From NCBI RefSeq assembly GCF_018977255.1, contig NW_024704749.1:18290001-18354000 (forward strand): a stretch of 64,000 nt of DNA. The letters run 5' to 3'. This DNA is from Callorhinchus milii. Taxonomy: Eukaryota. This document shows, in pieces, positions 18,401 to 43,150 of this stretch. The number at the start of each line of letters is the position of its first letter. Position 1 is the first letter of the stretch. The notes beneath the pieces are model-generated. The model saw nothing but the letters and a program-made list of their open reading frames with translations. It searched no databases and was not told the DNA's origin. The position numbers were made by a program, and so were the translations under genes.

Positions 18401-18982
18401 ACACAAACTACATATACATACTACATATATCACATACACCCAGTATTACATCTACACACAACTGCATACACACAGCGCTATGAATACACACTTCTACATA
18501 TACACACCATTGCTAAATATACAGTACACACTGCTACACGTACACACCGCTTCACATGCACACAACATATTCGGACAGACCTCTCTACATGTACACATGG
18601 CTGCATATTCAAATAATTTCAAACAATTCAGCACTTGTCACAACTTTTGTCAAAATGAAATCATCACTTCCCCACCTGTTAATTTTCCGTTTCTTTGCTT
18701 CCCACAGAAGAATGCCAACCAAGCCGCAATTGGGTGAGTGGTCTTAATCCAGTGTCATGTCTCTGCACAAACTGGGTGTTTGCCCACAAAATAAACAGTC
18801 AATACACTTTATATCCTATGGATGGCTTTGAGACGTCTCAACGACGTGATAAGATGCTATATCAAATGCTAGGATAATAATTATTATTGTTATATAGAAC
18901 TATTCATATTGAGAGAATGTCTTAAAGCACTTCACACGCCTCTACGGATCTAAATGTCCCTTTTTTTGTTTTACAGATTTAA
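15483..18982 (+). CDS. Lipocalin, fish-type prostaglandin D2 synthase-like (ptgdsb/LCN15-like), 7 exons, 186 aa
   Basis: Exons 15483-15578 (signal MRATVLAIGVIVLCALTVHG, then DIPVQKNFDLNQ), 16098-16237 (FLGKWYVVGMASDAQWFLGRKDKFKMST...), 17025-17101 (GGCWQMDFVYNKTDQEGRFKYHSK), 17577-17690 (RWNNDNDVRVVETNYDEFALVHSIKTKG...), 18251-18352 (SRGQELRSELVKEFRQYC...), 18708-18733 (EECQPSRNW) and 18977-18982 (I*). Intron phases 0,2,1,1,1 are canonical for lipocalins. CATAAATA TATA-like box near 15387; AATAAA at 19012. Resembles zebrafish ptgdsb (RWGNDNDMRVV, HTIKTKG) from memory; exact orthology uncertain. Confidence 0.9.
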
Positions 18983-20198
18983 ACGCAGAAAATGACAGAG
19001 AAATGTTCAGCAATAAAAGTAGGATTAGTGTTTCAAATATAACAAGATGCAAAGAACATTCACCTGATGGACACACTTTATATTGGAGCGCTGTATTCAC
19101 ACTTTTATGCAATAAACTATAAACAAGTAGCAAACTGTTGCCTTGTCTGTTTCATACTTATCTGTCATTTATGTCCATAATTTCACATGAGTGGGTCGAT
19201 ACAATACACATTTACATTTATACAGTGCCTTTCATCTTGGGAAGACTTCCCAAAGCACTTAACAACATCAACAACAACAACCTACATTTGTCTAGTGCCT
19301 TTCACGTCAGGAGGACGTCCTAAGGCGCTGGACAGTCAGGGATTTGCTCCTGATGATATGTGTTGTTCTTGTTGTTGTCTTAGTACGGATCTAGATTGAC
19401 TCAACTTCACTGCACGCAGAATTTTCTGCAAGATTCTTTGAAAAAACAGAAAATAATGAATTCAAAGTTCCGTCTGAATTCAATAATTTGCCAAGTTCCA
19501 GACTCTCTGAGAAGTAACAAAAAATGATCCTGGAAAGGGGAGTGTGGGTGGGGGGGGGGGGGGGGGGGAAGAGGGTTTTGTTTTCCCCCAGATAGCCCCT
19601 ATTGACAACCACTTCTCACCCACAAAATGCACAGTCACTACACTTTACAGTATACGCTGTAAGGTGCTTTGAGAACGACTTGAAGATGTGATACGGTGCT
19701 ACATCAAATGCAAGGATTATTATTATTATCATTATATGAAATGCACAGATTATTGCTCAAAGCGTTAATGCTGGAGCTAATTTAAAGAATAATTCAAATC
19801 ACCGCTACAATTATGGTGACGCAGCCGGAAAGATAAAAGTTGCTTGTTATAAAACCAGGTTCACTGAAAAGAGTTGCTGATATCTGCAATTTAGGAACGT
19901 GGGATTTTGGGTCAAGGCTTTCTCTGTGACAAACAAATAAACAAACTGATAGTCCCAGTTCATTCTGAGCTCTTGCAATAATTACAAGAGAAAGCCAAGA
20001 CTGACTTTTTTTCCCTGTTCCCTCTCTCACCCACCCCCCAAAAAAGAGGATTGAAGCATTCATGGGAGTGTGAGGTTTTTTGTTATTTTCGTTTGGGGGT
20101 GAGATTTGTCCTCATTCTCTCCTCGTTGTGGGCAGTGAGACAGCTTTGCAAATGTACTGGTCTTCATGTTTTGTTGACTTCTCAGTGGTTTGATCTGG

Positions 20199-20243
20199 GA
20201 TCAGTGATTAACTAGAAATGTCAACGTAGGTACATTGTGCAAT
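20199..20243. promoter_or_regulatory. AMBP proximal promoter: HNF1-like site plus C/EBP site
   Basis: GATCAGTGATTAAC (reverse GTTAATCACTGATC, HNF1-like) at 20199-20212 and ATTGTGCAAT (C/EBP) at 20234-20243, 95-140 bp upstream of the ATG. A FOXA-like AAACAAATAAACAAAC lies near 19930-19946. Confidence 0.55.
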
Positions 20244-20338
20244 CTGACTCCCCACATGACTGAAGGCTGGACACCTGAGATATTAACCTGATTTACTTTC
20301 AATGCCTCAGTTAGTGACTGACCAACACAACTGAGAGA

Positions 20339-21958
20339 ATGGGGCGAGCGTGTCTTCTGGTTTTGGCAATCTCCTCTCTGTGCTTTCTCCTGAAGGCAGT
20401 AACTGGAATGCCTGTTGAAAGTGGCATTCCTGTTCTGGAGAATTTTGACGTCACTCCGGTAATATCTAGTTTTTCTATACAAAATGTTTGATTCATTTCC
20501 GTGGAAGTCCATGACTTAGACTGTAGTTAGACTGGAGAATGGGTTTATAATAATAAGCCTTTGATGTAGCGCCTGTCGTATCGGGTGGGACGTCTCAAAG
20601 CGCTTCACAGGATTTACTTTCTGTGACTGTACTTTTGTGACTGTGCATTTTGTAGAAGAACGTAATTTTTCACAAAGCAACGTCCCACAAAATAACCAGT
20701 ACATAATACAGTATATTCTGTGAAGCGCTTTTGAGATGTATCAACTGCATTGTAAGGTGCTATATCAAATGCACACGTTTAAGCTAGCAGTAAGTAGGAA
20801 TCTGGTTGTTAATCGATCGGCGGATCGCTTTTTGCGGGCTAATAAATCTTTAAAAAAATAAATTGGACACTTCAATTCACGACTGTTTGTGGGACACTGC
20901 TGTGTGCAATTGGCTGCCGCGATTCATCCACAAAATATACAGTCAATTCACTTCACGGTATATTCTGTGAAGCGCTTTGAGACGTCTCGAAGACGTGATA
21001 AGGCGCTATATCAAAGGCAAGGATTGTTATTATTATTATATAAGATGACCGCGTACTTCGCAAAATGAATGCATTTTGTCTGTTTCTTCTCCCAGTTTCT
21101 CGGGAAGTGGAACAGCATTGCCTTGGCAACTGATTACCCCAGGATACAGCAGATCAGGGCCGAATTGAAGATGACAACGTATTCTTTGGAGGAATCTGAC
21201 CAGCCTGGCAAAATCCATGCTTCACATTTGTTTTATGTGTAAGACGCAGGGTTTGTGTGTTCCGTCTTTACTGCAATGCTGGATTTTCATAAAAATAATC
21301 CTTGTGTTCGATGAAAAAAATCCAATGAAACTCAATCCGCTTGTTTTCAGTACACCGCTGTGTACAAAATACAGTCGATCCACTTTACAATATATTCCGT
21401 GAAGCGCTTTGTGACGTCCCAACGACGTGAAAAGGCACTCTATCAAATGCAAGGATTACTATTATTCACCATTGGACGCATCAAAATGCCTCAAAGCACA
21501 TTACAGGGAATTGTTAGCGACTGAGTGTTTGTTGGCAAACATGGCAGCCAATTTACACATAGCCATGAAGTTAACGATTAATTTGTTTTTAATTGTGGGG
21601 AAGGGTGGAGGGGGAATTGTTTACCAGTACACCAGGAGAAATATACCCTTCTCTTTTCTTCCAGGACTGGGCTGGAGTGTCAATCTCGACTGTGTGCTCA
21701 CCAATAGTAGTAGTATTATTATTACTAATAATTATTATTATTATTATTATTAGTAATAATAATAATCCCTCCAAAAAACAAAACAATAATAAAAAATTGG
21801 TCATTTTCAATCCATGACAGTTTGTGGGACGCTGCTGTGCGCAATTGGCTGCCGCGTTCACCCACAAATATACAGTCGATTCACTTTACAGTATATTCTG
21901 TGAAGCGCTTTGGGACGTCTAGAAGATGTGAAAAGCGCTATATCAAATGCAAAGATTA

Positions 21959-21990
<32 letters not shown>

Positions 21991-24900
21991 AGTGTTTCTC
22001 TCTAAAAAAAACAATTAGTGCAGTTCCCATGGTTGTGTAGTGAACCCCATGCTGGTTACAGACTAAAAGTTTGCTCCCTTCTCATTTTCGACGGTGTTGT
22101 GGGGGTGTAACATTATTGGAAAAGAGAAGGGAGTTTCTCTCTCTCTCCCAGTGTCCTGGCCAGCAATCCCCCAGATAAAATTGGTCATTCACTTCATGGC
22201 TGTTTTATGTGACCGAGCAAGCGCAAATCAGATGCTGTATGTGTGTGATGAGTGCGTGTGTATATGCGTGTTTCCAAACCCAGAGGGTAATTAATGACTG
22301 GAACAGGTTCCCAGGAATCCTGATTGAGGCCAAGACACAAGGACTCATTTAAAGAAACAGCTTGATGGATGCTGTGATGGGAAGATGGTTGGGTAGGAAT
22401 TCTGGATGAGATCAAATGGGTCGAAGGACCTTCTTCATCCGAACCTCTCCTGAGGACTTGGGAGGTGAATTATTGGGTGCAGTTGAATGCTTTTTGTAAC
22501 TCCCTGGATTGTGACCCCCATCTCCCCCATTCTCGCCCGACTCCATTGGCTCCCTATCCTTCAGAGGATCCAATTCAAAATCCTGGTCCTCACCTCCAAA
22601 GCCCTCCATGGCCTCGTCCCACCCTACCTCTGCGACCTCCTAACCCCCTATCAACCCGCCCGCTCCCTCCGCTCAGCCGGCTCTGGCCTGCTCCACGTCC
22701 CCCGACTCACCCGCCCCACCATTGGCGGGAGAGCCTTCAGGTACTCTGCCTCCAACCTCTGGAATTCCATCCCCCAATCACTCCGCCTCGCCGTCTCCTT
22801 AGCTTCCTTCAAGTCTCGCCTCAAGACTCTCCTCTTCGACCATGCCTGCGGCCAACCCATTTCCCCTCCCCTCCCTTCTGCTCCCCTGACCCCAGTTTGG
22901 GTCTGAAATGCTGTACACTGTTCAGCGACTTGGGACGTCCTCCCGACGTGAAAGGCGCTAAACAAAAGTAATCTTGTTGTTGTTGTTGTTGATTTTATTC
23001 TTAGAGGAGACAGATGTACGAATATGTCAGTGATGTGTGACAAGCTGCAGCCTCCTGGTCGGTTCGCACTTTCAAGGTCAAGGTCAAGTAAGTCAGTAGA
23101 CTTGTCCTCATTCATGTACCTCATGTCTTCGGTTAATTAAATGTTGATTGATAATAATAATAATCCTTGCATTTTGATATACCGCCTTATCATGTTGTTG
23201 AGACGTCTCAAAGAGCTTCACAAGCTACACTGTGAAGTGGATTGACTGTGTATTTTGTGGGCGAATCGCGGCAGCCAATTGCACACTGCAGCGTTCCACA
23301 AAAAATTGCTATTAGATGTAAAACTCAGTCACTATATTTTACAGTACATTCTTTGAAGCACTTGGAACGCTAACCCGCGTGAAGGGCACTATATAAATGC
23401 AAGTTGTTGTTGTTGATTCCTGACTTGATAGGCTCGATAACAAATGTAAGGATTATCGTATATGGAATGACAGCTGTTCATTTTCTAACCAAAGTTCCTG
23501 ACATATCTCACATTCTGGAACTATAGGAGGAGGTCACTCAGCTACAGAATGCATCAATCACTTTGAGACGTCCTCACAATGCAAAAGGCAAAGATTACTC
23601 CTTATTCTACATTATTTTAATTAATCCACTTTCCAGCTCTCCAGTTTCAATGATCCAGTTCCCTACTGAACGATTCTATTGACTTGCCCGAAGGAGTCAC
23701 TGGTGGTGAAAAATTCCAAACCCTGACAACTCTCTGAGTGAAGAAATTCCTGCTGATTAAACCCTCCGTTGCCTTTTTTGCTAACAATCCTGAGACCCGT
23801 GCCCCTCCTCCTCCCCTCCCTCGTCACTGATTCCCCAACTAAAGGAAGTATATTTTTTCCCTATCTCCTCCGTCATGCCCCTTCAGTGTCTTAATGATCA
23901 CATCCCCTCTCAATCTCCGATGCTCTGCCTTTCTTACTTAGAATTTCCCCATCCTCGTAAAGAGACACAGAGACATTACCCTAATGGTGTTTACACCCCA
24001 CGTGATCATCCACTCCTCTTATTCCCCCTCTCCTACATCCCTCTGTTCCACTCTCTCTCATGCATGCATCGAGCCTCCTCTTAAATACATTGATACTTTT
24101 TGCTTTGACCACACCTTCCGACATTGATATGGTCACTCATTTCATGGCTGCCTGTGGGACGTTGCTGTGCGCCTACAAATACATAGTCAATAACTACACT
24201 TTATAATAAATCCGTGGATTATTTATTTGTTGCAATACTGTGGACCGTGCAAGCCAAAGCCCTAATGGGTAGGGTGGTCGTAGCAGCAAGAATGCTTGCT
24301 AGACAATGATATATTGTTATAATTTCTAACCTTAAGTTTAAGAAAATATGGTTTTGTGGCTAGGGAGGTGGTGTATGTGTGTGTTTGTGTGTGGGTGTGT
24401 GGGAGGGTGGTCTTAAAGCATGAGTGCAAATGCTAATGTTTAAATGTGTCACAGAAAGAATACAAATAGAGAAACCTCTGAAATCTTTATTTTACACCCC
24501 GACCTTAGGCGAAGAATTCCGAGTGATTCGCGGCAAACACCACGAATATGCCGTCGTCGTCTTCTACAGTCATGGGGCAAACAAAACAGTGACTACACTC
24601 AGGTTGTTCGGTAAGAGTTCTGATTCCTGGAAACTTTGGAAAAGGAGTCAGCCGTTCAGTTCCCTTAAGTCTGTTCCGCCATTTTATTAGATCATGGCTA
24701 ATCTGTACCTCAACTCCAATTACCCATCCAATTCCAGTCCACTGATTCCAACCAATCTCAGTCTGTCACACCGTTCTGCTTTAGGCCTTTAACATGGGGC
24801 AGAATTCGGGAAAATTCTTTGGTTCAGGCTTCTTTCAGGAACCAGTTTCTCTACAGTTCTTAAAAAAGGAACAGGCTTCCAAATGCGTGTCAGCCTGGCT

Positions 24901-27900
24901 TGGTTGATAGCAGTCTCACCTCGGAGTCAGAAGGAATGTTAAGCATTATATCAGCATCGCGTCATTACACAGAAATAGTCCTGTAGCTCAGTGGTTAGCG
25001 CATTTGCTTCGCAAGCGAGTGGATCCGGGTTAGATTTCCGGGCGGGGCAAAAGCTGAGGCAAGTTTCCTTACTCCACATGCCTCTATTTACCTAGCAGGA
25101 AGTAGGAACCCAGTTGATAATCAATTGGTGGATTGCTTTCCGGGCTTAATAATTCCTCCACACAAAAAAAAGTGGTCACTAACTCCACGACTGTTTGTGG
25201 GACACTGCTTAATTAGTTCCAGTGTTTCACCCACAAAATACAGTCAATCCACTTTACAGTACATTCTGTGAAGCTTTGAGATGTCTCAACGACGTGATAA
25301 GGCGCTATATCACCTTCAACTTTACAACAAAATCGTCTCGCAAGCTAAGACAAGGCAGAATTTTGAGCCTGGTGTGTTGGTTTGCTGGTTGAGCTTTTGA
25401 CCATTGTGTAATTAACTGATTGACAGGGAGGGCACAGGAGCTGAGGCCGGCCCTTCTGGAAGATTTCCGTCAGATATCCTTGGATCAAGGCATTCCAGAA
25501 GAATGTATTTTCCTGTTGCCTAAGGCAGGTATGTCTGCACGCACCCGCACACGCACACACACACACTCATTCACACGTATGCACACATGCACGCACGCCC
25601 AATAAATATCTTCAAGGTCACAAGAGATTCAGATGAAAAGGCCCTTTGGCCCACTTGATCTCATCTTTCTTGAACACCTCGTCTACCATCCTCTCATTAC
25701 AGCACCAAGACTTAAATGAGTCCATTGTCCTGGCCTCAACGACCCTCTCGGGTAACGCTGTTCCAGTGCTGAATTGCCCTCTGGGTAAAGAAATACTTCC
25801 TAGTGTCTGTCCTGAACTTGCCCCTTGCAACCATGAGCCTATGTCCTCTTGTTCTGCTGCTTCAGTTTATCTGAAATTAGGACTCTATGTAGACCAAGAC
25901 AACTCAGAATTAGACAGCTCCCTTTTTGCAAGTCAAGGTTGGAATTTAGGAGAGGAAAAATTTGCGTTCTTTCTTAAAGCTTTTCCTAAATTAATTCAAT
26001 TTATTTTTTCTGCTTTTCTAAAAGAGTGTTACAAAAGGTGACATTGACCCTGAGTTATTCTTACCTTGTCTATTTTACCAGATGAATGTGTGTCGGACAA
26101 GACTTTACCAGAATCCCAAAACCAGGTGAGCTGGAGATTTGTTCAGTGGTCACTGTTAAGTGCAATGAGACACTGCCTCGCGTTACGCAAATGCAAGTTG
26201 TTGTTGTTAAATTTCATTTTCATACAGCGTCTTTCACATACGAGAGCCCCACAATCAGGAGTTTGGGACATCCTCCCGAAGGCGCTATGTAAATACAATT
26301 TGTTGTTGTTTGAACTTATATAGTCTACCGTCCAGGTAGAGATTTTGCTTCGTCAGAGACGCTGTCTTTTGGATGACACGTGAAAACAAGTGTCTTGTCT
26401 GCCTGTTCAGGTGGACGCTAAGGATCCCATGGCACTATTCGAAAAGAGAAAGGAGTTTCTCTCAGTCTCTGTCCAACAATCTCCCAAATAAAATTAGTCA
26501 TTCACTTCATGGCTGTGGATCTCACCCTCCGAAAAATCCCTCTTCAGAAACTCACCAACCTCGCCTCATCAGAGTATGAAGCTGTTTCATAAATGAGTCC
26601 AGCATCACAGAAAATATTCACGTGTAATTCCAAGACTGAAGAGCCTCAGCTTGTCCAATCGTTGCTCATTACGTTAACACTGGGGATCATCCTCGTGGCT
26701 CTTTTCTTCGCTGCCTGTAGGGCCTGGGAAGTCCGTTATGTCACAGCGACCAGAACTATATTCAGTATTCCAGGCAGACACTGCTCACCTTGACAATGCC
26801 CAATGTGTGAGCGAGATTCACCCTCTCCACTGTTCCCGGAAATATAATTGGGGCTAATATAGTTTATGAAATTCCAGTACCACATACTTTAGTACAACAG
26901 CTTCAATCAGGAGCTGATCGTGTTTTGCTCAAAGAATTCAGCTTCGTTGAGAAAGGAACTTGTATGACAGACACTGACTTTTTTTTCCCCTGTAAGCAAC
27001 GAGTGCGAAGAATGGCTGTGGTCGAACCTGAGGAAGGATCTGGTTTGCTTCCTTCTAATGTCCCCTTCTTCAGCAGAACTGATGTTGAAGGTATGTTAAA
27101 TCCTGGCATTCCAACTCTGGGGCTAATTTGAGCTATTTCTTAATTGGGATTTCTGCTCATTTGCCCCCTTTTGTTAATCAAGATTTTTGCTCATTTGCGC
27201 CATTTGTTAATCATTAAATTAATTTAAATCGAATTAATTTGTTAATTTGCACCATTTGTTAATCATTAAAATGAAGTTAACGATTAACTAATGGTCCAAA
27301 TTAATTTGCAAATTAAATTAATTTAAATCAAATTAATTTGTTCATTTGCAGCATTTGTTAATCCACTCCTTTGCTGATTTACACTGGTTCCTTAACCCGA
27401 TTCCTGACAGCGCTCTCCTCTTTTCGTGTTTTGTTCCTTAAGCGGCGTGCCAGCTGCCAGCCGAGCCCGGGATATGCTTTGGGCACCACGAACGCTTCCA
27501 TTACAACCAGTCGACGATGACGTGTGCGAAGTTTGTTTACGGCGGTTGCTCTGGCAATGGCAATAACTTCCTGACTGAACAGATTTGCCTGCAGAGATGC
27601 AGGACTGTAGGTGAGAGGCTCATGGACCACACCAATAACTTGCAAACCCTTAACTGTCCAGTACCTCCGCACCTCAGGCGCTGACAGCATCAGCATCCAA
27701 GGCTGCACTCTCCACCTCTCAAAGCCATCAGGAACCTCGGGGTTCTGTTCGACCCTGAGCTGTCCTTTCTCCCTCATATCCGCGCCACAACTGGCACTGC
27801 CTTCCATCACCTCCGGAATATCGCCAGACTACGGCACTACCTCACCCCTCACGCTACTGAAACTCTGGTCCACGCCTTTATCACCTCAAGGCTGGACTAT

Positions 27901-30116
27901 GGGAACTCTCTCCTCGCCGGCCTTCCGGCCCTCCCTCCACACTGCAGGTCATTCAGAACTCTGCAGCTCGTGTACTGTCCCGCACCAGGCTTCGGGACCA
28001 CATCACTCCCACCCTCGCTCGCCTCCACTGGCTCCCCATCCCCCAGAGGATCGAATCAAGGTCCTCATCCTCACCTACAAGGCCATTCACGGCCTCGCTC
28101 CCTCCTACCTCTCCGACCTACTACCTACCTATCTGCCCGGACCCTCCGTTCCTCTGGCTCCGGTCTGCTCCACATCCCCCGCCCCAACCGCCCTACCATC
28201 GGTGGCCGGGCCTTCAGCCTCTCAGCCCCGAGGCTCTGGAACTCTATCCCCCAGTGCCTTCGACATGCCTCCTCCCTTTCCTCCTTCAAGGCCGGTCTCA
28301 AGACCTTTCTCTTTGACCGTGTCTTCAGCTCCCCTCTCGACTCTCTACCCCTTCCTCGCTCCCTCCCCTCCCTCCCCTCACCCTGACCATTTCCCCCCTG
28401 CTCGGGTCCTGACCCAGCTGTACAGCGCCTTGGGACGTCCTCCCAACGTGAAAGGCGCTCTATAAATGGAATCTTGTTGTTGTTGTACCTTGAGGCGTCT
28501 TTCCGACATTTTTGGGGGGTAACGGAGTATCTGACACTTGTGGAAACCCAGCACCGTGCTTAAGAGTCTCCAAATCAAACTGAGAATTCCATGCATCCCA
28601 CCTACATGTGGAAATCCCAGAGATAGATTGTTGGAATGGAATACCTGCTTACCTAATTCTGGAAAGCATTTGGGGAAGGTTGTGGAAAAGCGCTATATAA
28701 ATATAATTTTGTTGCACTTGTTGCTGTACTTATATAGCGCCTTTTGATGGAGTCAGACACCGAGGAAGGGAGAGGGGGAGGTGACTATAGATAGAGGTAG
28801 ATTTTAAGTGAGATTTAAAGACCGATAATGAGTAGGTGAATTGAAGGTGTAGTGGAAGGGTGTTTCAAAAGTTAGGGCAGAATGGCACAGATGGGCAGTA
28901 TGTGCACCTGAACCAACATCCTTTTGATCCAGAGGCGAGAGTGCTACTGAGCCAGGCTGACACCTATTTGGGATCTATCATTGACTTTCAATCTATCAAG
29001 TTTCCTGGATCTAGACTTTACCATCTCAGGCAATGTCAGGAGAGTTTCTCGCTGTTTTCAGGTGCCCGATCATGCTGACAGAACCCAAATGCATTTGGAG
29101 AATCCCTACAGAAGTACATTGCAATTTCTTGTGCCATTATTCCTCCAACCCTGTGGTCCAAATCCTTACTAATGTATGTGATTTTCTCTTCTCACAGCCG
29201 CCTGCAGGCTGCCCATAGAAATTGGGCCATGCAAAATTGCAGTAGATCTCTGGGCTTTTGACTCCGTCCTCGGGAAATGCAAACCTTTCATCTACGGTGG
29301 ATGTCAAGGAAATGGCAACAAGTTCTACTCTTTGAAGGAGTGTGAAGAGTACTGTGATGCAGTCCCAGCAGGTACCAACGCTGCTTGTAGGAAATCAGTA
29401 ACAGGAGAGGTCAATGCGGCCCATTCCAGCTTTCCATTTATTATTATTTGTTATTACTATTTTAGGAGTAATAATCCCTCTACTCTCCACCCCCAATAAT
29501 AATAATTTGGTCACTCAATCCACAACTGTTTGTGGGATGCTGCTGTTTGCACTTGGCTGCTGTGTTTCTCCCACAAAATACACGGTCAATTCACTTTACA
29601 GTGTATTCTGTGAAGCACTTTGAGACGTCTCAACGATGTGTTAAGGCGCTATATCAAATGCAAGTATTATTATTCCATGACCATATTTTACAATCTCCCT
29701 TAATCCCACCTTCCTGCAATATCAGCCCCATTGGGACAGCAGACGAGACCTTAGGTTAACCTCTCACCTAAAGGACAACACCTGTGACAGCGCAGTGCTC
29801 CCACTGTCACGTCGGTCTAGACTGTGAGCTCAAAGTCTCCAAAATGGGGCTCGAACAGACAACATTCTGACCCAGAAACGAGAGCGAGAGTGACTGAGCC
29901 AAGCCGACACCTACGCTTGTCAAGTGACTCAGTCATTAGGGTGAGGCTTAAACTCACCCAGCTGCAGGTCAAGGAACATCTTTGAAGCCATTCATATGGT
30001 AGTTCAGAGTGTCTCAGCTCCCCCTCACTTTTTGTTCGTGTTTGCATCACTGCCATTTCTATCACTGTCTTATAACATTGTGTTTTGCAGAAGAGGCTGA
30101 CCTTCTGGCTGTTTGA
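20339..30116 (+). CDS. AMBP: Alpha-1-microglobulin/bikunin precursor, 10 exons, 351 aa
   Basis: Exons 20339-20458 (signal, ...ENFDVTP), 21096-21238 ([15 protein letters not shown]...), 23005-23087 (GDRCTNMS...), 24509-24610, 25427-25528 ([29 protein letters not shown]), 26082-26125 (DECVS...), 26997-27090 (QRVRR furin site; EEGSG chondroitin-sulfate site), 27443-27610 (Kunitz 1, 168 bp), 29198-29371 (Kunitz 2, 174 bp; [13 protein letters not shown]...LWAFD...[21 protein letters not shown]) and 30091-30116 (EEADLLAV*). AATAAA at 30293. The lipocalin + RxRR + EGSG + two-Kunitz architecture is diagnostic of AMBP. Confidence 0.95.
22511..22990 (+). mobile_element. L2-clade LINE 3' fragment (AMBP intron 2)
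   Basis: ORF2 C-terminal peptide [39 protein letters not shown]...[17 protein letters not shown]...[10 protein letters not shown], followed by a 3' UTR and a (TTG)n tail. Confidence 0.85.
24977..25312 (+). mobile_element. tRNA-derived SINE, long form
   Basis: tRNA-like head GTCCTGTAGCTCAGTGGTTAG, the shared body (GACTGTTTGTGGGACACTGCT...CACAAAATACAGTCAA), and a 3' end similar to the L2 tail. Confidence 0.75.
27150..27364. repeat. AT-rich degenerate tandem repeat in AMBP intron 7
   Basis: Recurring CATTTGC...CATTTGTTAATCATTAAA and ATTAAATTAATTTAAATC units with ~50 bp period. Confidence 0.75.
27625..28487 (+). mobile_element. L2-clade LINE, 5'-truncated and frameshifted (AMBP intron 8)
   Basis: Frameshifted RT C-terminal motifs ([68 protein letters not shown]) and a (TTG)n tail. 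Confidence 0.85.
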
Positions 30117-30608
30117 AACACAACATAGAGAAAAATGAAACTAAAGTAGGGCGTTGAGGTGGCGTTCATTCGCACTGTGGGACATCACCATCACTGAACA
30201 GAAGCCTTGTATCCGATCAAGAGATGGGACCCCTTTGTTTCTGTTCTTGTGTTCTTTCTGCACACACAGTATATGCTTAAACCATATAATCAAATAAAGC
30301 ATTAGCCTTCACTGTGTATCTCAGGACACATTATTTTACACAACAACATAGTGACCAAAAAGATTCACCATTAGCCCCCGCTCCTCCTATGCCACTCTCC
30401 CATACCCCTCAATAATCTCCTCTCCCTTAAATATGCATCAAGTTTCACCATGTTGATATATCCATACCATCCTAACAACAACAACTTGCATTTATTTGGC
30501 GCTCTTCATGAGGGACAGAGTCTCAGAACACTTAACAGTGGGGGGGGCTGACGTTGAGCTGGGGGGGAGGAGGGAGGTGACCATAAGCATGGTCAAAAAG
30601 GAAAAAAA

Positions 30609-33868: not shown

Positions 33869-33895
33869 GATCAGTGATTAACTGGAAAGATCAAC
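33869..33895. promoter_or_regulatory. Promoter motif (HNF1-like) shared with AMBP
   Basis: GATCAGTGATTAACTGGAAAGATCAAC matches 20199-20225 at 24 of 27 positions, and lies ~130 bp upstream of the ATG at 34001. Confidence 0.65.
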
Positions 33896-34000
33896 ACAAG
33901 TTGCACCACCAGATCCCGGCACCCAGTCATTGACGTAGGAGGCGCCCAAGCTTAAATCTCTGTCTCTGGACCCAATTGAGATCCCAACCAGACCGAGACC

Positions 34001-37000
34001 ATGAAGGGAAGCCATTTCCTCCTCCTTGCCATATCCTTCCAATTTTTTCTGTTGCAGAAGGCAAAAGGCAGTCCAACAGTGGGCCCTGGACATCTTTTTG
34101 AACCAGGTATGTAGTATAGCACCCACCACCCCTTACATTTACTGTATTTACCCTGAATCTGAGGCTCAGGAAGAGGTTTTAGAGCTTAATCACAAGGAGC
34201 CTCTAAGATGCAGCCAGAATTTGGAGGTTAAAAAAGAACTCGGCTTGACTTTAACTCAATGTTGTACCCAATAGCTTTCTCATAATGTAGTATCTCTAAG
34301 TGCTTCACATAAACACAGTGCAAACCCAGCAAGGTGGGAAGGATGTGGGAGAGTGGAGAAGAGAGTTGACCAAAAGTGTGGTCAGAAGTAGGTTTTCAGA
34401 GGGTTTGGGAAAATGGGGAGGGAATAATAATAATAATAATAATAATCCTTGCATTTGATATAGCGCTTTTCACGTCGGGAGGACATCCCAAAGTGCTTCA
34501 CAGAACACACTGTAAAGTGAATTGACTGTATATTTGTGGGCGAACGCGACAGCCAATTGCGCACAGCAATGTCCCACAAACAGTCGTAGATTGAAAATGA
34601 CCAATTTATTATTGTTTTTTGTTTTGGAGGGATTATTATTAGGCTCTGCGTGGAGTAAGGAAACTTGCCCAAGATTTCGCCCTCTGCCTGGAATTGAACT
34701 CAGATCTCTCGCTTGCAAAGCGAGTGCTCTAACCACTGAGCTACAGGAATAGGGGAAGACTGCAAACTGAGGGAGGGAGGAAAAGGGGGAAGGAGAAGGA
34801 GAAAGAAGGACAGAGAAAGCAAGGGAGAGTAAAGAGAGAGAGATACGGGGTGGGGGGAGGGAGGGATGGAAGGAAGGAAAGAAAAGAAAGACAGAGGAGA
34901 GGAATAAATGATAGAAAAAGAGAGGAAAAGTAGGGTGGAGTGGAAGAAAGTTAAAGAAAGATAGAATTAAGCTTAAGAAAGGGAAAAAGGCAAAATCTGT
35001 GCGAAGTGAAAAGTAAAGACTGGGACAAAATGCAAAAATGGCCCAAGGTGACATGAACAAAGTACAGCGAGGAGGAAAGAGAGCAGCGATGATATTCACT
35101 TACAGTTTTAACTCTCTTTAAAGAACATGAAATAAAAATTACTGATAAAGTTTTACCTGGAGACAGGTCGGTGATCTGGTGATACACAAGCTCAGGGTCT
35201 GCTCCTCTGCACAGAATGAAATTCGTTGGATGTAAGCCGCAAGCTTTACCTGCAACAACAACAACAACTTGCGCTTATATAGCACCCTCCACGCAGGGTA
35301 GCGTCTCAGAGCGCTTTAGCAGAGAGTGGGGTGGGTGAGGTTTCAGTTTCTCCCCTGTTGTATTTCACTGAGATAAACCAGACAGATAAAAAAGACTTAA
35401 CCAGATACAATTTGGAATTTCTCAACATATCCCACAAAACATATATTCACTACATTTTACAGTATATCCTGTGAAGTGCTTTGGGACGTCCTGCCTAACG
35501 TGAAAGGAGCTGCACCATAACGTACAAAACTAACAACTTGCATTTATATAGCGTACTTTAAATAGGGCAGCGTTTCAAAGTGCTTTCCTCTCTCTATCCC
35601 TCCTTTCCTCTCTCTGACTCTTTCCCTCCCCCTCTCCCCTTTTCACAATAACAACATGTATTTATTCAGCATCTTTCATGCTGAGAAATATCTCAAAGAG
35701 CTTTACAGAGACAGTGTGAGAGCACGAGCACTGTGGGAAATGGCAGGGTAAGTGGAATGTGCATTCAGAGAGGCGGGTTTTGAAAGTGAGAAGGGGAGAG
35801 AGCCCGGGCACAGTAGCTGACGGCTCCACTGTTGATGGTAGGGCAGACAGGGTGTGAACAGATCGAGGTGGACGTGGAGGGATTGAAAGGCGAGGATGAG
35901 GGTTTCAGAGTTAATCCACCGGGGGATGGGGAGCCAGGGGAGGATGTGCATGATGGACTCGGGGAGCAGGGTGCAGAAGACGACGTGGGCTACAAGGGGA
36001 TGATGGAGGCGTAGGCGAGGGTTTCAGCTGAATTGGAGGTGAGGTCAGTGGGGTGGAGGCAGGCGACAATAGCAGACGTGGATGGAGGAAAGTGGACTTG
36101 GTCAGGGAACCGATGGAAGGCATGAAGGAGAACGCGGGTGAGGGTCGAAGAAAATACCGAGACTTGGCATTGGCTGCATGAGTTGGAGCGATCAGCCGGG
36201 GAGGTTGACAGGGTTAGCGCCGGAGAAATAAAATAAAATGTGTGTTTGTTTGTAAGATGTCTGCATGATGCCACCTGCGATTGGAAGATGTCATGCTTTA
36301 AAGCCCAGATTCTTCTTCAACCAGTCATCGATGTCCTGCGACTTATTTACCTACGGTGGCTGCGGTGGAAATGGTAACAACTTCATGACTAAAAGGGACT
36401 GCGAGCACACCTGCAACGTGACAGGTAAGAAACGAAAGGCGCTGGGATTTCCAGTATGAAATCAAATCTTCTGGGCTGGGAAGATGGCGTATTTCACTGA
36501 CCGACCTTCTGAAGGTCCAACCTAGAGAATAACAATTCAAACAACAACAACAAAACTTACCACACCACCTTACCAATAAAACTGCTCTCCCCGCACCTCA
36601 GACATGCAAACCCAAGATAGCGGCAGATCACGATTCAAAACTTAGGGGCATTGGGATGGTAGATACTGCCACTAGTGGCCAGTTAGGGTTATTACAGTGT
36701 CTGCTTTTACTTTTTCAAACCCATTTATAATATTATACAACAACAACTTGCATTTATATAGCGTCCTTCACGTGGGGTAGCATCCCGGAGCGCTTATACA
36801 CCTCTCAGGGTTGAAGAGCTCCAGCTTGTCTAATTGTTTGTTGAGACGCATGGGTAAAATGTGTGAGGTTTTATAACTATTGAATGTGATGAGTACAAGA
36901 ATTGACATGAGGCCAGAATCTGTGGGCGTTAGTGCTGGAAATTGGGGGGAGAAGGAACAGAACACAACCAGTCAGGATAATGCAGTATGGTGATAGCTGT

Positions 37001-40000
37001 TCAATCTGCTGTAAAACCCACGAGTGGTCCCGTTGCCCAGTGGATTGAAAGACATCAACACAGAAGAGTTTATGCTCTTCTGATGGTTATTGCCGGCAAT
37101 ATTTATCGCATTGAATCCCGTACATTTAGCAGGTCGTTATTAATTTTTTTAAAAATTTGGTCAGCCGAGTGTCTGACACATGCGGAAAACCATCGCCATG
37201 CTTAATAGTATCCAAACAGGATTGAGAGATCCACATATGGACATTGACATATGGAAATTTCCCCATGTTTGGAATGGAATGCACATGCTCTCCTCAGAGG
37301 GGAGCATTCTGCTTTACCTAATTCCAAAGAGTACGTTAGGCACAGGCAGCAATCTCACCTCTCAATCATGAGGTTGTGGGTTCAAGCCCCATTTCGGCAC
37401 TTTGAACTTGCAGTTTAAGACGACTGGGTTGCATTGTCAGAGGTACTATCTTCCAGATGAGATGTTAAACCAAGGGCCTGCCTGCCTGTTCAGATAGATA
37501 GTAAAGATCCCATGGCCTATTTGAAAACTGACTCGCAATACCCTCAGATAGAATTGGTCACTCTGTTCATGGCCGTTTGTGGGACATGGCTATGCGCAAA
37601 CTGTGTTCAAACACAGAATAAACTTTTCCGTATAACCTGTGCTGCCCTTTGAGCCTTGAGACGTCCTCCCGACATGAAAGGTGCTATATAAATGCAATTT
37701 GTTGTTGTCATTCGTATGGTACTAAACATGATGCTTGTTCCTTTAAGAGCTCTGCGCCCTGGCACCTAAAGTGGGGATGTGCTATGCTCTCATGCACAGA
37801 TACTTCTACAACCAGTCATCAAAAGCGTGCGAGGTATTTATGTACGGTGGCTGCAGAGGAAATGTAAATAATTTTCAAGAAAAGGAGCAATGTGAGGATT
37901 CCTGCGGTGAGCTGGGTGAGAGAAACATTCCTGCTCTGTTTGCAATTAAACCCACCCTACATGCTGGCTTCTTCCAACATAAGGGGCTTTGGTGATACAC
38001 AAGCACGATGGGAGATGCTGGCCAACACCGCCAAAGGCGACAGGAAAAAAAATAATAATAACTTGGCCACTCAATCCATGACGGTTTGTGAGAACTGCTG
38101 TGCGCAATTGGCTGCTGCAAAATATACAGTCAATTCACTTTACAGTATGTTCTGTGAAGCGCTTTGATAATAATAATAATAATCCTTGCATTTGATATAG
38201 CGCTTTTCACGTCGGGAGGACGTCCCAAAGCACTTCACAGAACACACTGTAAAGTGAATTGACTGTATATTTGTGGGCAAACGCGGCAGCCAATTGCGCA
38301 CAGCAATGTCCCACAAACAGTCGTAGATTGAAAATGACCAATTTTTATTATTGTTTTTGGTTTTGGAGGGATTGTTATTAGGCTCTGTGTGGAGTAAGGA
38401 AACTTGCCCGAGGTTTCGCTCTCTGCCTGGAATTGAACTCAGGTCTCTCACTTGCAAAGCGAGTGCTCTAACCACTGAGCTACAGGACTCCACAGGACGT
38501 TGCAACGACATGATATGGCGCTATATCCAAATGCAAGGATTATTATTTTAACTTAATCCCCTTTTTTATAGCATTTTGCAAACTGAAACCTGACAGAGGG
38601 CCCTGCAGGGCAGATTTTGTACGATACTTTTACAACACATCAACAAAGATGTGCGAGCAGTTCAAGTATGGCGGTTGTCTGGGAAACACCAACAACTTTA
38701 TGGATCCAATGGAATGTCATTTCAAATGCGGCGACAAAGGTGAGAAATCACTGCCGACCACTCCATATCTCTATGCACACACTCTCACCCACAAATACAC
38801 AATCACCCACACTTTACAGAACCTCTGTGAAATACAAGGATTATTATTACATATGTAGTGTCACTCACTTACTTACTCACTCACTCCGTTCATGTCGGGA
38901 AGATGTCCCAAGTCGCTGGACAATCAGGGATTTGGACCCGAGCAGGAGGTTGGGATCACAAAGGGAGGAGGGCAGGGAGGGTAGGGGTAGGCAGATGACC
39001 AAAGGCGCGGTCGAAGAGGACTAAAGTGAACAAATGGAAAGAATACCTGCTCTGTAGACTGTACACTAGCTAATGATAGCTCGCTGTGTATTTCTTCCAG
39101 GGGAATGCCTGTTGCCCATTCAAATAGGAAAGTGCAGAGGTGCCATACCGAAATGGAGATTTGATAAAACGATGAGAACATGTGTCGAATTCACGTACTC
39201 GGGATGCGATGGAAATAAGAACAACTTTGATTCAGAAATGGAATGTAAAAAGCACTGCCCGGTTCCAGAGGCGAGAGGTTCCATGCCGAAACACGTTCCA
39301 ATAATATTCAAGTATGAAAGAGTTAAATTCCAAACCCCATTACAGCGCGCCTTAGCTCTGATATAGCACGGTACACAGGCTGTCCTCCGGCGAACTCACA
39401 TTTACCACGAGGTAGAGTGGATGACCGGCCAGAGTCTTGCGCAAGGCGCCGGGCGAGGTGATGTCAGTGGTGACCCTGACCGGATGACAAGAGTCATCTT
39501 ACAATATAGCCTGTTTTAGCACTGGATGTCACTTTAAGACACCACCACCCCCACTCCATCACCATAGCGTTATAACAGAGTCGGACTCAATAAATTGGAT
39601 CTGGAATGCATTGCCTGAAAGGGTGGTGGAAGCCGATTCAATAACAACTTTTAAGAGAGAAGTAGATAATTATTTGCAGGGCTATGTGGAGAGAGCGGGG
39701 GAGTGGGATTGATTTGGATAGCTCTTTTTAAAGAGCTGGCACAGACACGATGGGCCGAATGGCCTCCTTCTGTGCTGTATGATTCTATGAATGGTGAGAA
39801 GTCGTGACCTCAAAATTAGAGCAAAGCTGTTCTGAACCAGGATCAGGGAGGATCTCTCCACACAGAGTGTGACAGGACAGCTCCAGAGAGCCAAAGAGGA
39901 GAGATTGGTTATGATCAGCTATGGAACAGGCTCCCTAGGGAGACTGGGAAAATAATATTTTGGGATACAGTATATGAGTAATTTGAGACATAACATATAG

Positions 40001-40609
40001 TAAGTGTAGTATGGGTTGGATCTAGGCAACTTTGGATCTAAGGTTCCCAAAGATTTCCACTGTGATGGTAGACTAATCCATACAGAATTAATTGCTATCA
40101 ATATCTCCATTATTGTAGCATGCGACTACCAGGATGGTAGACAGCGGACTAGATGGACCTTGGTCTTATTTTGTCTGGCAATTCCTATGTTCCTATCAGT
40201 TGAAGGTTTTAAGAGAGTTGCCCAGATACGTGGATTGTAAGAATATTAAAGGATGGGATTAGGGAGATTTTATTGCCTGGGCCATGGAATGGGCTGTAGT
40301 GGTGCAGTCGATGGACTGAATGGCCTCCTCCCATTCTGGTTTGTGTTTTTTCATAAAATTTGTCAGCCTGGCTCAGTGGGTAGCACTCTCACCTCCGAGT
40401 CAGAAGGCTACGGGTTCAAACCCCACAATGAGCTAGCTCATAGTACTGGTGGAGGGCTGCATTGTCAGGTGTGCCATCCTTCGGATAAGAAATTCAAATT
40501 GAGGTCTTCAACGTCCACCTGAACAAGCAGGTGGGATCTCAGCCTTGACAAAATTCTGAACTAAATGGTTTATTGAATTTCAGGTGAATTACCACATCAA
40601 CTCCCCTAA
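34001..40609 (+). CDS. Secreted four-Kunitz-domain protease inhibitor (bikunin-related, no lipocalin domain), about 270 aa
   Basis: Exons 34001-34106 (signal MKGSHFLLLAISFQFFLLQKAKG), 36257-36424 (DVCMMPPAIGRCHALKPRFFFNQSSMSC...YGGCGGNGNNF...), 37748-37915 (ELCALAPKVGMCYALMHRYFYNQSSKAC...), 38572-38739 (AFCKLKPDRGPCRADFVRYFYNTSTKMC...), 39101-~39277 (GECLLPIQIGKCRGAIPKWRFD...) and a probable last exon 40584-40609 (GELPHQLP*). All four domains keep six Cys; the first three Kunitz exons are phase 1-1. AATAAA near 40698 and 40767. The last donor and the C-terminus are uncertain. Confidence 0.88.
34423..34748 (-). mobile_element. tRNA-derived SINE, young short form
   Basis: Near-identical to the reverse complement of 47517-47851, with a tRNA-like head and a (TTA)n tail. 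Confidence 0.85.
35690..36220 (-). mobile_element. Old L2 LINE fragment
   Basis: The minus strand gives degenerate L2 ORF2 peptides (ILPWLPIPRWINSETLILAFQSLH) and an L2-type 3' region. Confidence 0.6.
38167..38491 (-). mobile_element. tRNA-derived SINE, young short form, nested in an older SINE
   Basis: Near-identical to 47517-47851 in reverse. It interrupts an older plus-strand SINE tail (…GAAGCGCTTTGA | ACAGGACGTTGCAACGACATG…). Confidence 0.85.
39597..39790 (+). mobile_element. CR1 LINE 3' end fragment
   Basis: CTGGAATGCATTGCCTGAAAGGGTGGTGG...GGGCCGAATGGCCTCCTTCTGTGCTGTATGATTCTATG; a similar copy lies at ~55855-56030. Confidence 0.7.
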
Positions 40610-41469
40610 TCGAATTATAGACCGTGTGCTGCAGAACAGAAGACCAGAAGAAAATGCGATGATTAAAGGATTGAGATTGGAAAAAATCAACCAGTTAAAT
40701 AAATCATTAAATATGACTATAAGGCTCATTCACACTTGAGTATGAAAAAGCTGTCTTTCAAAGTAAAATAAAGAGCCTTAATTGAACTTAAAGACGGCAT
40801 GCGAGTCTTTGCATCGAAAATTTGCATCAAAGTATCATGCAGGTGTACAATAACTTTCATTTATATAGTGCCCTTCATGTAGCAAAGGTCTCAGAATAGG
40901 AAGTGGATAATGATAATAATAATCCTTGTGTTTGATACAACGCCATATCGTGTCATTGAGACATCTCAAAGCGCTTCACAGAAAATATGGAAAAGTGAAT
41001 TGACTGTATTATGTGGGCGAAACGCGGCAGACAATTGCACACAGCAGTATCCCACAAACACTCATGGATTGACTGACCAAAGAGATTATTATCCCAGAAA
41101 TTGATCTGTCAATCGACTGACAACCATATTCCTGCTTACTGCTGGGCAATGAGCGGCGTCAGGGTAAGGAAACTTGTCTGAGGATGCGTTTTTCAATAAG
41201 CCTTTAATCATTAGGACAAGGAATCAGAACTTTGGGCCATGCTCTCGCCATTTCCTACTGCCATTTCCTGGGCAGTTTTGGGACTAGCAGAAGGTGGCAA
41301 CCCTTAATGTGGGCAGATTTCATACCCTCTTCTCCCACCCAGTCTTCCCCACTTGCACCAGAGTTTGTTAGGAATTAATATACGTTTAGAGCCCAACGTC
41401 CACCAAATACTAGCCCCCAAAGTAGCCCAATATTTTGCTCTGCCTCCAATGTGGATGGCACCCAACTCT

Positions 41470-42129: not shown

Positions 42130-43150
42130 CAACCGAGCGGGAAACCGACATATCTTACCACCATTGTCCTCTCGCTTTCGTCCAATGGCTCTCCTTTACC
42201 AAGATGGCGGCCGGGTCTTCGCCTCCCCCCCCCACCCCACCCCGCCGCCGCTCAAGGTTCTCCTTCACCAAGATGGCGGCCGGGTCTTCGCCCCCCCCTC
42301 CGCCGCTCAAGGTTCTCCTTCACCAAGATGGCGGCCGGGCTCCCCCCCCCCCATGGTTCTCCTTTGCCAAGATGGCGGCCGGGCTCCCCCACCCTTGACT
42401 GCGCCTTTACGAAGATGGCGGCGGCGGTTTGAATGCCAACCGCCAGCCCCGGGCGGTCCGGCCGGGAATTGTTTCCGGGCGGCGGCGGCTTCCGGCGGAG
42501 GGTGATGCGGGCGGACAGCGGGTGCCAGTGAGGGAGGGCAGGTGAGTGAGGAGCTGCCGCCGGGGCTCTCAGTAGCGGAGCGCACGTCAGTCAGAGTCAG
42601 TCAGTCAGGAGGGCCTCACGCACTACACTCGGCGTCAGCTTCAATCACCATCGCCATCCTCCTCCTCTTCCTCCTCTTCCTCTTCCTCCCCGGGTTTTGA
42701 CACAGAGCGTCTCTGCTGTAACGTTGGAAACCTCTCCCAAGCACTTCACCGTGAAGTGTAGTGACTGTGTTGATAATAATGCTGGCGTTTGACCGAACAC
42801 ACGCGCACACACGCACTGACGAGCACAGTGCAAAACACAGTTAATAATAATGATGATGATGATGGTGGTGGTGATGGTGGTGATGATGATGATCTGTGCA
42901 TTATCACGTCCCGGATGTTCTCAAAGCGCCAACGCCGTAGAGACGTCTCAAAGCGCTTCACTGTGGAGTGGAGTGACTTTTTGTTTCGGGTGTTTTGTTA
43001 CGGGCAAACCGTTCGCAAACAATGTCCCCCCCTCCCTCCCCCCTCCCTCCCCTCCCCCCCCCCCCCCCGCGCGCCCACGAACCGCCGTGGGGTGAGTGCG
43101 TGAGTTTAGGCGCTCCGGGAGTTAAGCTACACCCCCGTGTGAGGGGTGCT
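42130..43150 (+). promoter_or_regulatory. CpG-island promoter and probable non-coding first exon (donor at 42541/42542) of an unidentified plus-strand gene
   Basis: Very high CpG density; five same-orientation YY1 motifs (AAGATGGCGGC); ETS-like TTCCGG motifs; consensus donor GCAG|GTGAGT. ATGs in this region open only short ORFs. Confidence 0.75.

What the first reader, a model, noticed from the sequence alone, without database searches (positions are those of the whole stretch)
33869..40775. Lipocalin-free, four-Kunitz paralog of AMBP directly downstream of AMBP
Seen in sequence: an intact secreted gene with four Kunitz exons follows AMBP on the same strand, and several independent marks tie it to AMBP rather than to TFPI or SPINT genes. 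(a) The first 25 aa align without gaps at 11 positions ([25 protein letters not shown] vs MKGSHFLLLAISFQFFLLQKAKGSP). (b) A 27-bp promoter motif is shared. (c) Domains 1-3 are 168-bp exons with the bikunin-K1 R(F/Y)x(Y/F)NxS sequon, while domain 4 has the bikunin-K2 signature CxLPIxIGxC...WxFD. (d) The likely last coding exon has 26 nt in both genes. The gene has no lipocalin exons, no RxRR furin site and no EGSG glycosaminoglycan site. Established: bikunin needs that GAG chain to carry ITIH heavy chains. Inference: this is a free circulating inhibitor, either an AMBP duplicate that lost alpha-1-microglobulin and triplicated K1, or a surviving relative of the Kunitz gene that fused with a lipocalin to create AMBP.
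Basis: partly seen in the sequence, partly recalled or inferred. Interest (0 to 1): 0.85.

Follow-up and report, generated by a model that had tools for sequence, protein, structure and literature searches.

The report
Lipocalin-free bikunin copy beside AMBP
Right behind the blood-protein gene AMBP, a chimaera has a separately spliced gene for a four-Kunitz-domain protein that is likely a partial AMBP copy which lost the lipocalin half and the sugar-chain site, and would therefore act as a free protease inhibitor outside the otherwise constant two-in-one AMBP design.

Summary
Real gene. Six exons are joined in one 1,061-nt contig of a run guessed to be RNA. The 274-aa product is already filed from cDNAs as 'Kunitz-like' or 'SmCI-like'. 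AMBP ends at its own last exon.

Ties to AMBP that hold:
- The signal peptide matches this species' AMBP best of 207.
- A 27-bp upstream element occurs only at these two genes.
- Domain 4 groups with bikunin K2 (95/89).
- All three linkers have bikunin's five residues.

'K1 triplicated' rests on exon register and splice sites: protein trees do not place domains 1-3 with K1, and domain 3 is closer to TFPI K2.

Best reading (0.72): a partial duplicate of the already fused AMBP, now likely a free inhibitor with P1 His, Tyr, Arg, Arg. A pre-fusion relic is unlikely, because lamprey AMBP is already fused, but the domain-4 tree does not exclude it. Darter proteins look like an independent lipocalin-free AMBP copy. 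No shark orthologue was found. Activity and tissue are untested.

The parts
33869..33895 (+). 27-bp upstream element shared with AMBP; holds a 9-of-12 match to the recalled HNF1 palindrome
   Evidence: function inferred
34001..34106 (+). Exon 1 coding part: signal peptide plus 12 residues, phase 1 (longest contig starts at 33951)
36257..36424 (+). Exon 2, Kunitz domain 1, P1 His48, AAG acceptor as in AMBP K1
37748..37915 (+). Exon 3, Kunitz domain 2, P1 Tyr104, AAG acceptor and GTGAGA donor as in AMBP K1; one cDNA lacks 3 codons, which fits a donor 9 nt earlier
38572..38739 (+). Exon 4, Kunitz domain 3, P1 Arg160, GTGAGA donor; protein closest to TFPI K2 / TFPI2 K1
39101..39311 (+). Exon 5 (211 nt), Kunitz domain 4 of bikunin-K2 type, P1 Arg216, plus C-terminal tail
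40584..40773 (+). Exon 6: last base of Lys274, TGA, 3' UTR, AATAAA at 40767
20199..20225 (+). AMBP copy of the 27-bp element
20339..30309 (+). AMBP, ten exons, with RVRR and EEGSG kept; own last exon and AATAAA at 30293
27443..27610 (+). AMBP K1 exon (168 nt), inferred template of exons 2-4
29198..29371 (+). AMBP K2 exon (174 nt), inferred template of exon 5

Best explanation
This is a separately spliced gene for a 274-aa protein with four intact Kunitz domains, and it likely arose as a tandem copy of the already fused AMBP gene that kept the upstream element, signal-peptide exon and Kunitz exons, lost the lipocalin and cleavage/glycosaminoglycan exons, and likely multiplied the K1 exon. With no Ser-Gly attachment site outside a folded domain, it would not carry chondroitin sulfate or ITIH heavy chains. 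It would be secreted as a free glycoprotein of about 28 kDa (polypeptide). Each head would inhibit a serine protease by the standard Kunitz mechanism: domain 2 (Tyr) chymotrypsin-like enzymes, domains 3 and 4 (Arg) trypsin-like enzymes, domain 1 (His) an unknown target. AMBP next door keeps the inter-alpha-inhibitor role. Shown: gene, splicing, sequence features. Inferred: history, secretion, tissue, targets.
For: Stand-alone transcript and cDNAs. Signal peptide scores 39 against this species' AMBP, next best 19, among 207 signal-like N-termini, and -8 to 7 against six other AMBPs. The 5' region scores 136 against AMBP (0 of 1000 shuffles) and 83 against the neighbouring PTGDS-like gene (225 of 1000). 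The 27-mer is found only at the two genes. Domain 4 lies in the bikunin K2 clade: 97 SH-aLRT among 128 rows and 95/89 among 62 rows. Domains 3-4 align without gaps over 112 residues with human bikunin 1BIK. Linkers are 5, 5, 5 residues, as in 5 of 5 two-domain AMBPs checked; TFPI 8-41, TFPI2 9, SPINT2 21-85. Exon register 5/10 nt around the cysteines equals AMBP K1; TFPI K2 and TFPI2 K1 are 14/13. Among 29 Kunitz exons of this genome, AAG acceptors occur only at AMBP K1 and domains 1 and 2, and GTGAGA donors only at AMBP K1 and domains 2 and 3. At DNA level AMBP K1's best match is domain 1, and AMBP K2's is domain 4 (tied with one other exon). Lamprey AMBP is fused. AMBP keeps RVRR and EEGSG, and ITIH C-terminal exons exist at three places.
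Against: Domains 1-3 stay outside the bikunin K1 clade in both protein trees. Domain 2 scores 150 against TFPI K2 and 134 against K1; domain 3 scores 170 and 167 against TFPI2 K1 and TFPI K2 and 146 against K1. The DNA tree joins domain 3 to TFPI K2 at 70/48. Forcing domain 4 beside the chimaera and shark K2 costs 12.5 log-likelihood units (p-AU 0.087), while placing it outside all K2 is 1.7 better than the free tree (p-AU 0.506). The 5' likeness is confined to the 27-mer and the signal peptide: the 5' UTR, the exon-1 tail and the 150 nt upstream are at chance (493, 565 and 137 of 1000). Intron ends and last exons are at chance too; of 11 such comparisons only the domain-4 exon tail reached 40 of 1000. 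AMBP and the PTGDS-like gene also share some 5' likeness (7 of 1000). The splice-site marks were picked after seeing them, and the other exons' borders are predicted, not RNA-checked. The 5/10 register is shared with the APP-like exons.
Confidence: 0.72

Rival explanations
1. Mosaic gene: the AMBP-derived 5' end and domain 4 were combined with one or two Kunitz exons captured from a TFPI/TFPI2-type gene, giving a hybrid coagulation-type inhibitor.
For: Domain 3 is 32 of 56 identical to this genome's TFPI K2, its best non-self match, and domain 2 also leans that way. The DNA tree joins domain 3 to TFPI K2 weakly (70/48). The Atlas's nearest clusters by features are TFPI and TFPI2 (0.93-0.94).
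Against: TFPI K2 and TFPI2 K1 exons have a different register (14/13 nt, 180 nt), while exons 3 and 4 have AMBP K1's 5/10 and its GTGAGA donor. Unrelated domains also score best against TFPI K2 or TFPI2 K1, so these rows attract generic domains. Holding domain 3 with bikunin K1 is not rejected (p-AU 0.281).
Confidence: 0.11
2. Relic: a surviving sister of the Kunitz gene that fused with a lipocalin before lampreys and jawed vertebrates split, whose 5' end was later replaced or homogenised from the neighbouring AMBP.
For: Domain 4 outside all K2, lamprey included, fits as well as the free tree, and a position beside chondrichthyan K2 fits worse. The domains are far from AMBP (87-95 of 168 nt).
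Against: It needs survival for over 500 million years (recalled date), loss elsewhere and a separate 5' capture, since the signal peptide matches only this species' AMBP. No orthologue was seen among the best 120 of 193 hits. A fast-evolving copy is expected to slip to the base of its clade (established long-branch effect).
Confidence: 0.1
3. An unrelated multi-Kunitz gene that happens to lie beside AMBP and shares a liver-type factor site by convergence.
For: Kunitz domains are all alike; a 9-of-12 or better HNF1-like match occurs at 37 positions of the window; 172 of 2853 random pairs reach the 27-mer's score.
Against: The signal-peptide match, the supported K2 placement, the linkers and the splice-site marks are separate features that all point to the adjacent gene; the 27-mer has no third copy.
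Confidence: 0.05
4. The exons are only an alternative 3' end of AMBP.
For: Same strand, 3.6 kb behind AMBP's end, compatible phase-1 exons. Only the best-supported joints were listed (635 more not shown).
Against: Contigs and nine cDNA sequences begin with the gene's own exon 1. AMBP contigs in X3 and X6 splice to their own last exon and end near 30309. No AMBP-to-36257 joint is among those listed.
Confidence: 0.02

Closest known systems
Bikunin / AMBP (PDB 1BIK; this species' AMBP K4GHC2)
   Same: K2-type last domain, five-residue linkers, K1-type exon register and sequon, AMBP-like signal peptide and upstream element.
   Different: No lipocalin, no RxRR site, no Ser-Gly glycosaminoglycan site; four domains instead of two; P1 His/Tyr/Arg/Arg against Phe/Lys in this AMBP; domains 1-3 no longer group with K1.
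Database entries NP_001279583.1 'carboxypeptidase inhibitor SmCI-like' and K4GHJ1 'Kunitz-like protease inhibitor' (Callorhinchus milii)
   Same: This very protein.
   Different: The names reflect a best hit to a three-Kunitz protein (PDB 4BD9) and give no link to AMBP.
Etheostoma 'SmCI / BPTI-Kunitz / AMBP-like' proteins (P0033, P0151-P0153)
   Same: AMBP-type signal peptide, no lipocalin, repeated domains with five-residue linkers, no acidic Gly-Ser-Gly site.
   Different: Signal peptide matches teleost AMBP (14 of 25) and not this gene (4 of 25); domains sit inside the K1 clade; no K2; keeps an exon-7-like stretch. Position beside ambp not checked.
TFPI and TFPI2
   Same: Secreted multi-Kunitz build; domain 3 resembles TFPI K2 and TFPI2 K1.
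   Different: Three domains with longer linkers and other exon registers; this genome has its own TFPI- and TFPI2-like loci on other contigs.

Membership tests
Kunitz/BPTI inhibitors (PF00014) | Six cysteines in Kunitz spacing and Kunitz fold | tested here: met
   Four domains over the Pfam cut-off, 24 Cys, single domains superpose on solved Kunitz domains at 0.5-2.0 A
Kunitz/BPTI inhibitors (PF00014) | Inhibits a serine protease through the P1 loop | not testable with these tools
   P1 residues read from sequence only
AMBP | N-terminal alpha-1-microglobulin lipocalin | tested here: not met
   No lipocalin match in the gene; the transcript joins exon 1 to domain 1
AMBP | Basic cleavage site between the two parts | tested here: not met
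   No R-x-[RK]-R in the protein
Bikunin | N-terminal Ser-Gly site for chondroitin sulfate and heavy chains | tested here: not met
   The only SG is at 237 inside domain 4; the role of Ser10 is from passages of PMC9889512
Bikunin | K2-type domain | tested here: met
   Clade support 97 and 95/89; signature in 9 of 11 K2 and 0 of 90 others
Bikunin | K1-type domain | tested here: inconclusive
   Exon register, splice sites and sequon agree; trees do not place them there but do not reject it
Bikunin | Five-residue link between domains | tested here: met
   5, 5, 5; ungapped to 1BIK
Bikunin | Liver expression under HNF factors | tested here: inconclusive
   HNF1-like match 9 of 12 to a recalled consensus; run tissues are not given
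TFPI/TFPI2 | Three domains with long linkers and 180-nt-type exons | tested here: not met
SPINT1/2 (HAI) | MANEC or LDLa domains and a membrane anchor | tested here: not met
   Only PF00014 on the protein, short polar tail, no grouping with SPINT2 rows; no row labelled SPINT1 was in the trees

The most novel reading that the evidence does not exclude
Bikunin has escaped its lipocalin partner at least twice independently, in chimaeras and in darters, each time as a copy that reuses AMBP's first exon, multiplies the K1 domain and drops the glycosaminoglycan site. This would mean that alpha-1-microglobulin is needed for the proteoglycan and heavy-chain route, not for folding Kunitz domains, and it would offer natural constructs to test why the two proteins are made together.
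Probability: 0.4. Interest if true: 0.65.

Novelty: new variant of a known kind. Interest (0 to 1): 0.5.

Why it matters
[quoted passage not shown] Here AMBP itself is intact, so that rule stands. A well-expressed sister gene without the lipocalin and without the glycosaminoglycan site is a natural version of that knockout, and the darter proteins suggest a repeat. It also corrects a misleading database name. Lineage-specific duplication with domain loss and Kunitz expansion is itself a familiar process, which caps the score.

Tried and rejected
The joint seen is at 39311.

The idea that exon 1 is a fusion of AMBP exon 1 with exon 7 was tested and is at chance (745 of 1000; 967 of 2000). Intron and last-exon homology with AMBP is at chance.

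The catshark 'SmCI-like' protein P0044 was considered as an orthologue and rejected: it groups with a lizard WFDC-Kunitz domain (96/82) and has seven-residue linkers.

The AlphaFold model (pLDDT 85.7, pTM 0.42) does not fix the domain arrangement; rmsd to 1BIK is 11.9 A, so it says nothing on bikunin-like packing.

The one search of protein representatives was sent with P0138, the PTGDS-like lipocalin, when the AMBP lipocalin was meant. It still returned AMBPs used in the trees but was not a search for orthologues of this gene.

No listed run is on record as RNA and tissues are not given. Contig depth cannot rank genes, so the high depth in X1 is not used. Run X4 holds a contig of this gene with no cover over several AMBP exons; this is not counted as evidence.

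An exon-1 protein search of the genome found only itself. Pfam found nothing in 150 of 214 open frames scanned from the rest of the window, so the downstream neighbour is unnamed. Atlas searches gave only generic Kunitz clusters. Earlier scan notes held nothing.

The careful tree of 128 rows did not finish, so the quick tree is reported. Two planned clade tests were not run: domain 4 with this species' K2 alone, and domain 3 with TFPI K2 on the protein tree.
Full report
Setting. The window holds six Kunitz exons, two in AMBP and four in the finding. The genome has 35 Kunitz matches, a lower bound. Database names for the matching proteins give the chimaera Callorhinchus milii. A PTGDS-like lipocalin gene lies upstream of AMBP.

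The gene is real and separate. One contig of run X5 (1,061 nt) covers 33951-40773 in six pieces, and the same joints appear in X1 and X2. These runs are guessed to be RNA, but they skip GT-AG introns. The protein cluster has nine members, all named cDNA or RefSeq entries such as NP_001279583.1. Eight are 274 aa and differ from the window by at most two residues; one is 271 aa. AMBP contigs in X3 and X6 splice to AMBP's own last exon and end near 30309, behind an AATAAA. No joint from AMBP into the new gene is among those listed; 635 joints were not shown. The paper on this cDNA set (PMC3466250) has no occurrence of 'Kunitz' in its text (search listing; passages). Its four supplements could not be read and may give the tissue.

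(a) 11 of 25 residues hold. Among 207 fetched proteins that passed a simple signal-peptide filter, after leaving out the gene's own cluster and four duplicate AMBP entries, this species' AMBP scored 39 and the next 19. Shark, lamprey, bichir, turbot, arapaima and marsupial AMBPs scored -8 to 7. (b) The 27-mer is 24 of 27 identical. Shuffles never reached it (0 of 3000), but 172 of 2853 random window pairs did, because of repeats. A pattern built from both copies finds only those two in the genome. It contains a 9-of-12 match to the recalled HNF1 palindrome, a level reached at 37 positions of the window. One AMBP contig runs through the element (X3, from 19995), so 'promoter' is inferred. (c) See below. 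(d) is wrong: exon 5 ends at 39311, and exon 6 adds one base and the stop.

Domain ancestry. From the genome's Kunitz exons and fetched proteins I cut 135 domain readings and dropped 7: two frameshifted readings, one broken model and four duplicates. Domain 4 falls in the bikunin K2 clade in the quick tree of 128 rows (97) and in the careful tree of a 62-row subset that I chose (95/89, bootstrap not fully settled). Its signature occurs in 9 of 11 K2 and 0 of 90 non-AMBP domains. Domains 1-3 do not enter the K1 clade. By mean score domain 1 is nearest K1 (150 against 133), domain 2 nearest TFPI K2 (150 against 134 for K1), and domain 3 nearest TFPI2 K1 and TFPI K2 (170 and 167 against 146); unrelated domains are drawn to the same rows. 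Holding domains 1-3 with K1 is not rejected (p-AU 0.356; domain 3 alone 0.281; DNA, 26 of 29 exons, 0.283). With 56 columns these tests are weak both ways.

Gene structure favours K1. Exons 2-4 have 5 nt before the first and 10 nt after the last cysteine, as in AMBP K1 and the two APP-like genes; TFPI K2 and TFPI2 K1 have 14 and 13 (borders predicted by splice-site score). Of 29 Kunitz exons, AAG acceptors occur only at AMBP K1 and domains 1 and 2, and GTGAGA donors only at AMBP K1 and domains 2 and 3; two exons had no valid donor (post hoc Fisher p 0.008 and 0.009). All three linkers have five residues, as in bikunin, and domains 3-4 align ungapped with human bikunin over 112 residues.

Duplicate or relic. 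Lamprey AMBP already joins lipocalin, K1 and K2, so a pre-fusion relic must be older than that split. The domain-4 tree cannot decide: outside all K2 fits (p-AU 0.506), and beside chondrichthyan K2 fits worse but is not rejected (0.087). The 5' end weighs most for me. AMBP's exon 1 carries the start of the lipocalin (passages of PMC7965949). A gene whose exon 1 matches this species' AMBP most simply descends from the fused gene. A later 5' capture could rescue the relic, hence 0.10. No shark or ray orthologue was seen among the best 120 of 193 hits. That search is word-limited, and no other animal genome was available.

How it likely works. The protein has 24 cysteines, four N-glycan sequons, no RxRR and no exposed Ser-Gly; the mature chain would be 251 residues if cut after Gly23 (cut site inferred). 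Bikunin binds heavy chains through the chondroitin sulfate on Ser10 (passages of PMC9889512), so this protein would circulate or act free. P1 residues are His, Tyr, Arg and Arg, against Phe and Lys in AMBP. By the established Kunitz rule this points to one chymotrypsin-type and two trypsin-type heads; the target of the His head is unknown. AMBP keeps RVRR and EEGSG, and ITIH exons are present, so a division of labour is plausible. The model confirms four Kunitz folds but not their arrangement.

A parallel. Darter proteins have a teleost-AMBP signal peptide (14 of 25 with turbot AMBP, 4 of 25 with this gene) and a stretch like AMBP exon 7 (2 of 2000 shuffles) that breaks off where Gly-Ser-Gly follows in turbot. 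They then carry one to three domains inside the K1 clade. They are gene-model predictions, and their position was not checked. They look like an independent origin of the same design.

What is in print. Ten searches of the paper library (listings and abstract starts) showed no description of this gene or of a lipocalin-free AMBP paralogue. Subscription journals are largely missing from that library. Passages of PMC8420045 report a single AMBP group in fish and propose duplication plus fusion as its origin.

Verdict. Observation partly confirmed; interpretation partly supported; a new variant of a known kind; interest 0.5.

Noticed in passing
window 21096-21238 (AMBP exon 2): The alpha-1-microglobulin part lacks the cysteine that aligns with human C34 (reads A-T-D-Y-P, also in cDNAs); the bichir and Triplophysa rows lack it too, 3 of 11 lipocalin rows besides arapaima, which has it. 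A review calls this thiol the driver of the protein's chemistry (PMC7965949 passages).
   Followed up: partly
protein P0130 (Arapaima gigas): AMBP model of 823 aa with five K1-K2 pairs and no cleavage or Ser-Gly linker; a real expansion or merged genes.
   Followed up: partly
proteins P0033, P0151-P0153 (Etheostoma): Lipocalin-free proteins with AMBP-type signal peptide and bikunin-K1 repeats.
   Followed up: partly
window 15483-30116: RefSeq XP_007898560.1 (543 aa) merges the PTGDS-like lipocalin with AMBP, whereas separate cDNAs exist for each; likely a gene-model error.
   Followed up: partly
window 5500-7800, minus strand: Lipocalin-like exon pieces (GKWY and TDY motifs), probably a C8G-like gene, which would make a three-lipocalin cluster with the PTGDS-like gene and AMBP; the name is recalled, not tested.
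   Followed up: no
window 23076-23087: AMBP exon 3 ends in a short tandem repeat with three in-frame GT sites; contigs and cDNA use the last, adding Ser-Arg repeats.
   Followed up: partly
window 42190-42620: GC-rich stretch with short repeats that looks like the start of the next gene; no Pfam match in the scanned frames.
   Followed up: no
L020 (G000:C12:14327100-14328400): A Kunitz exon whose halves lie in different frames, so a frameshift or an assembly error.
   Followed up: no
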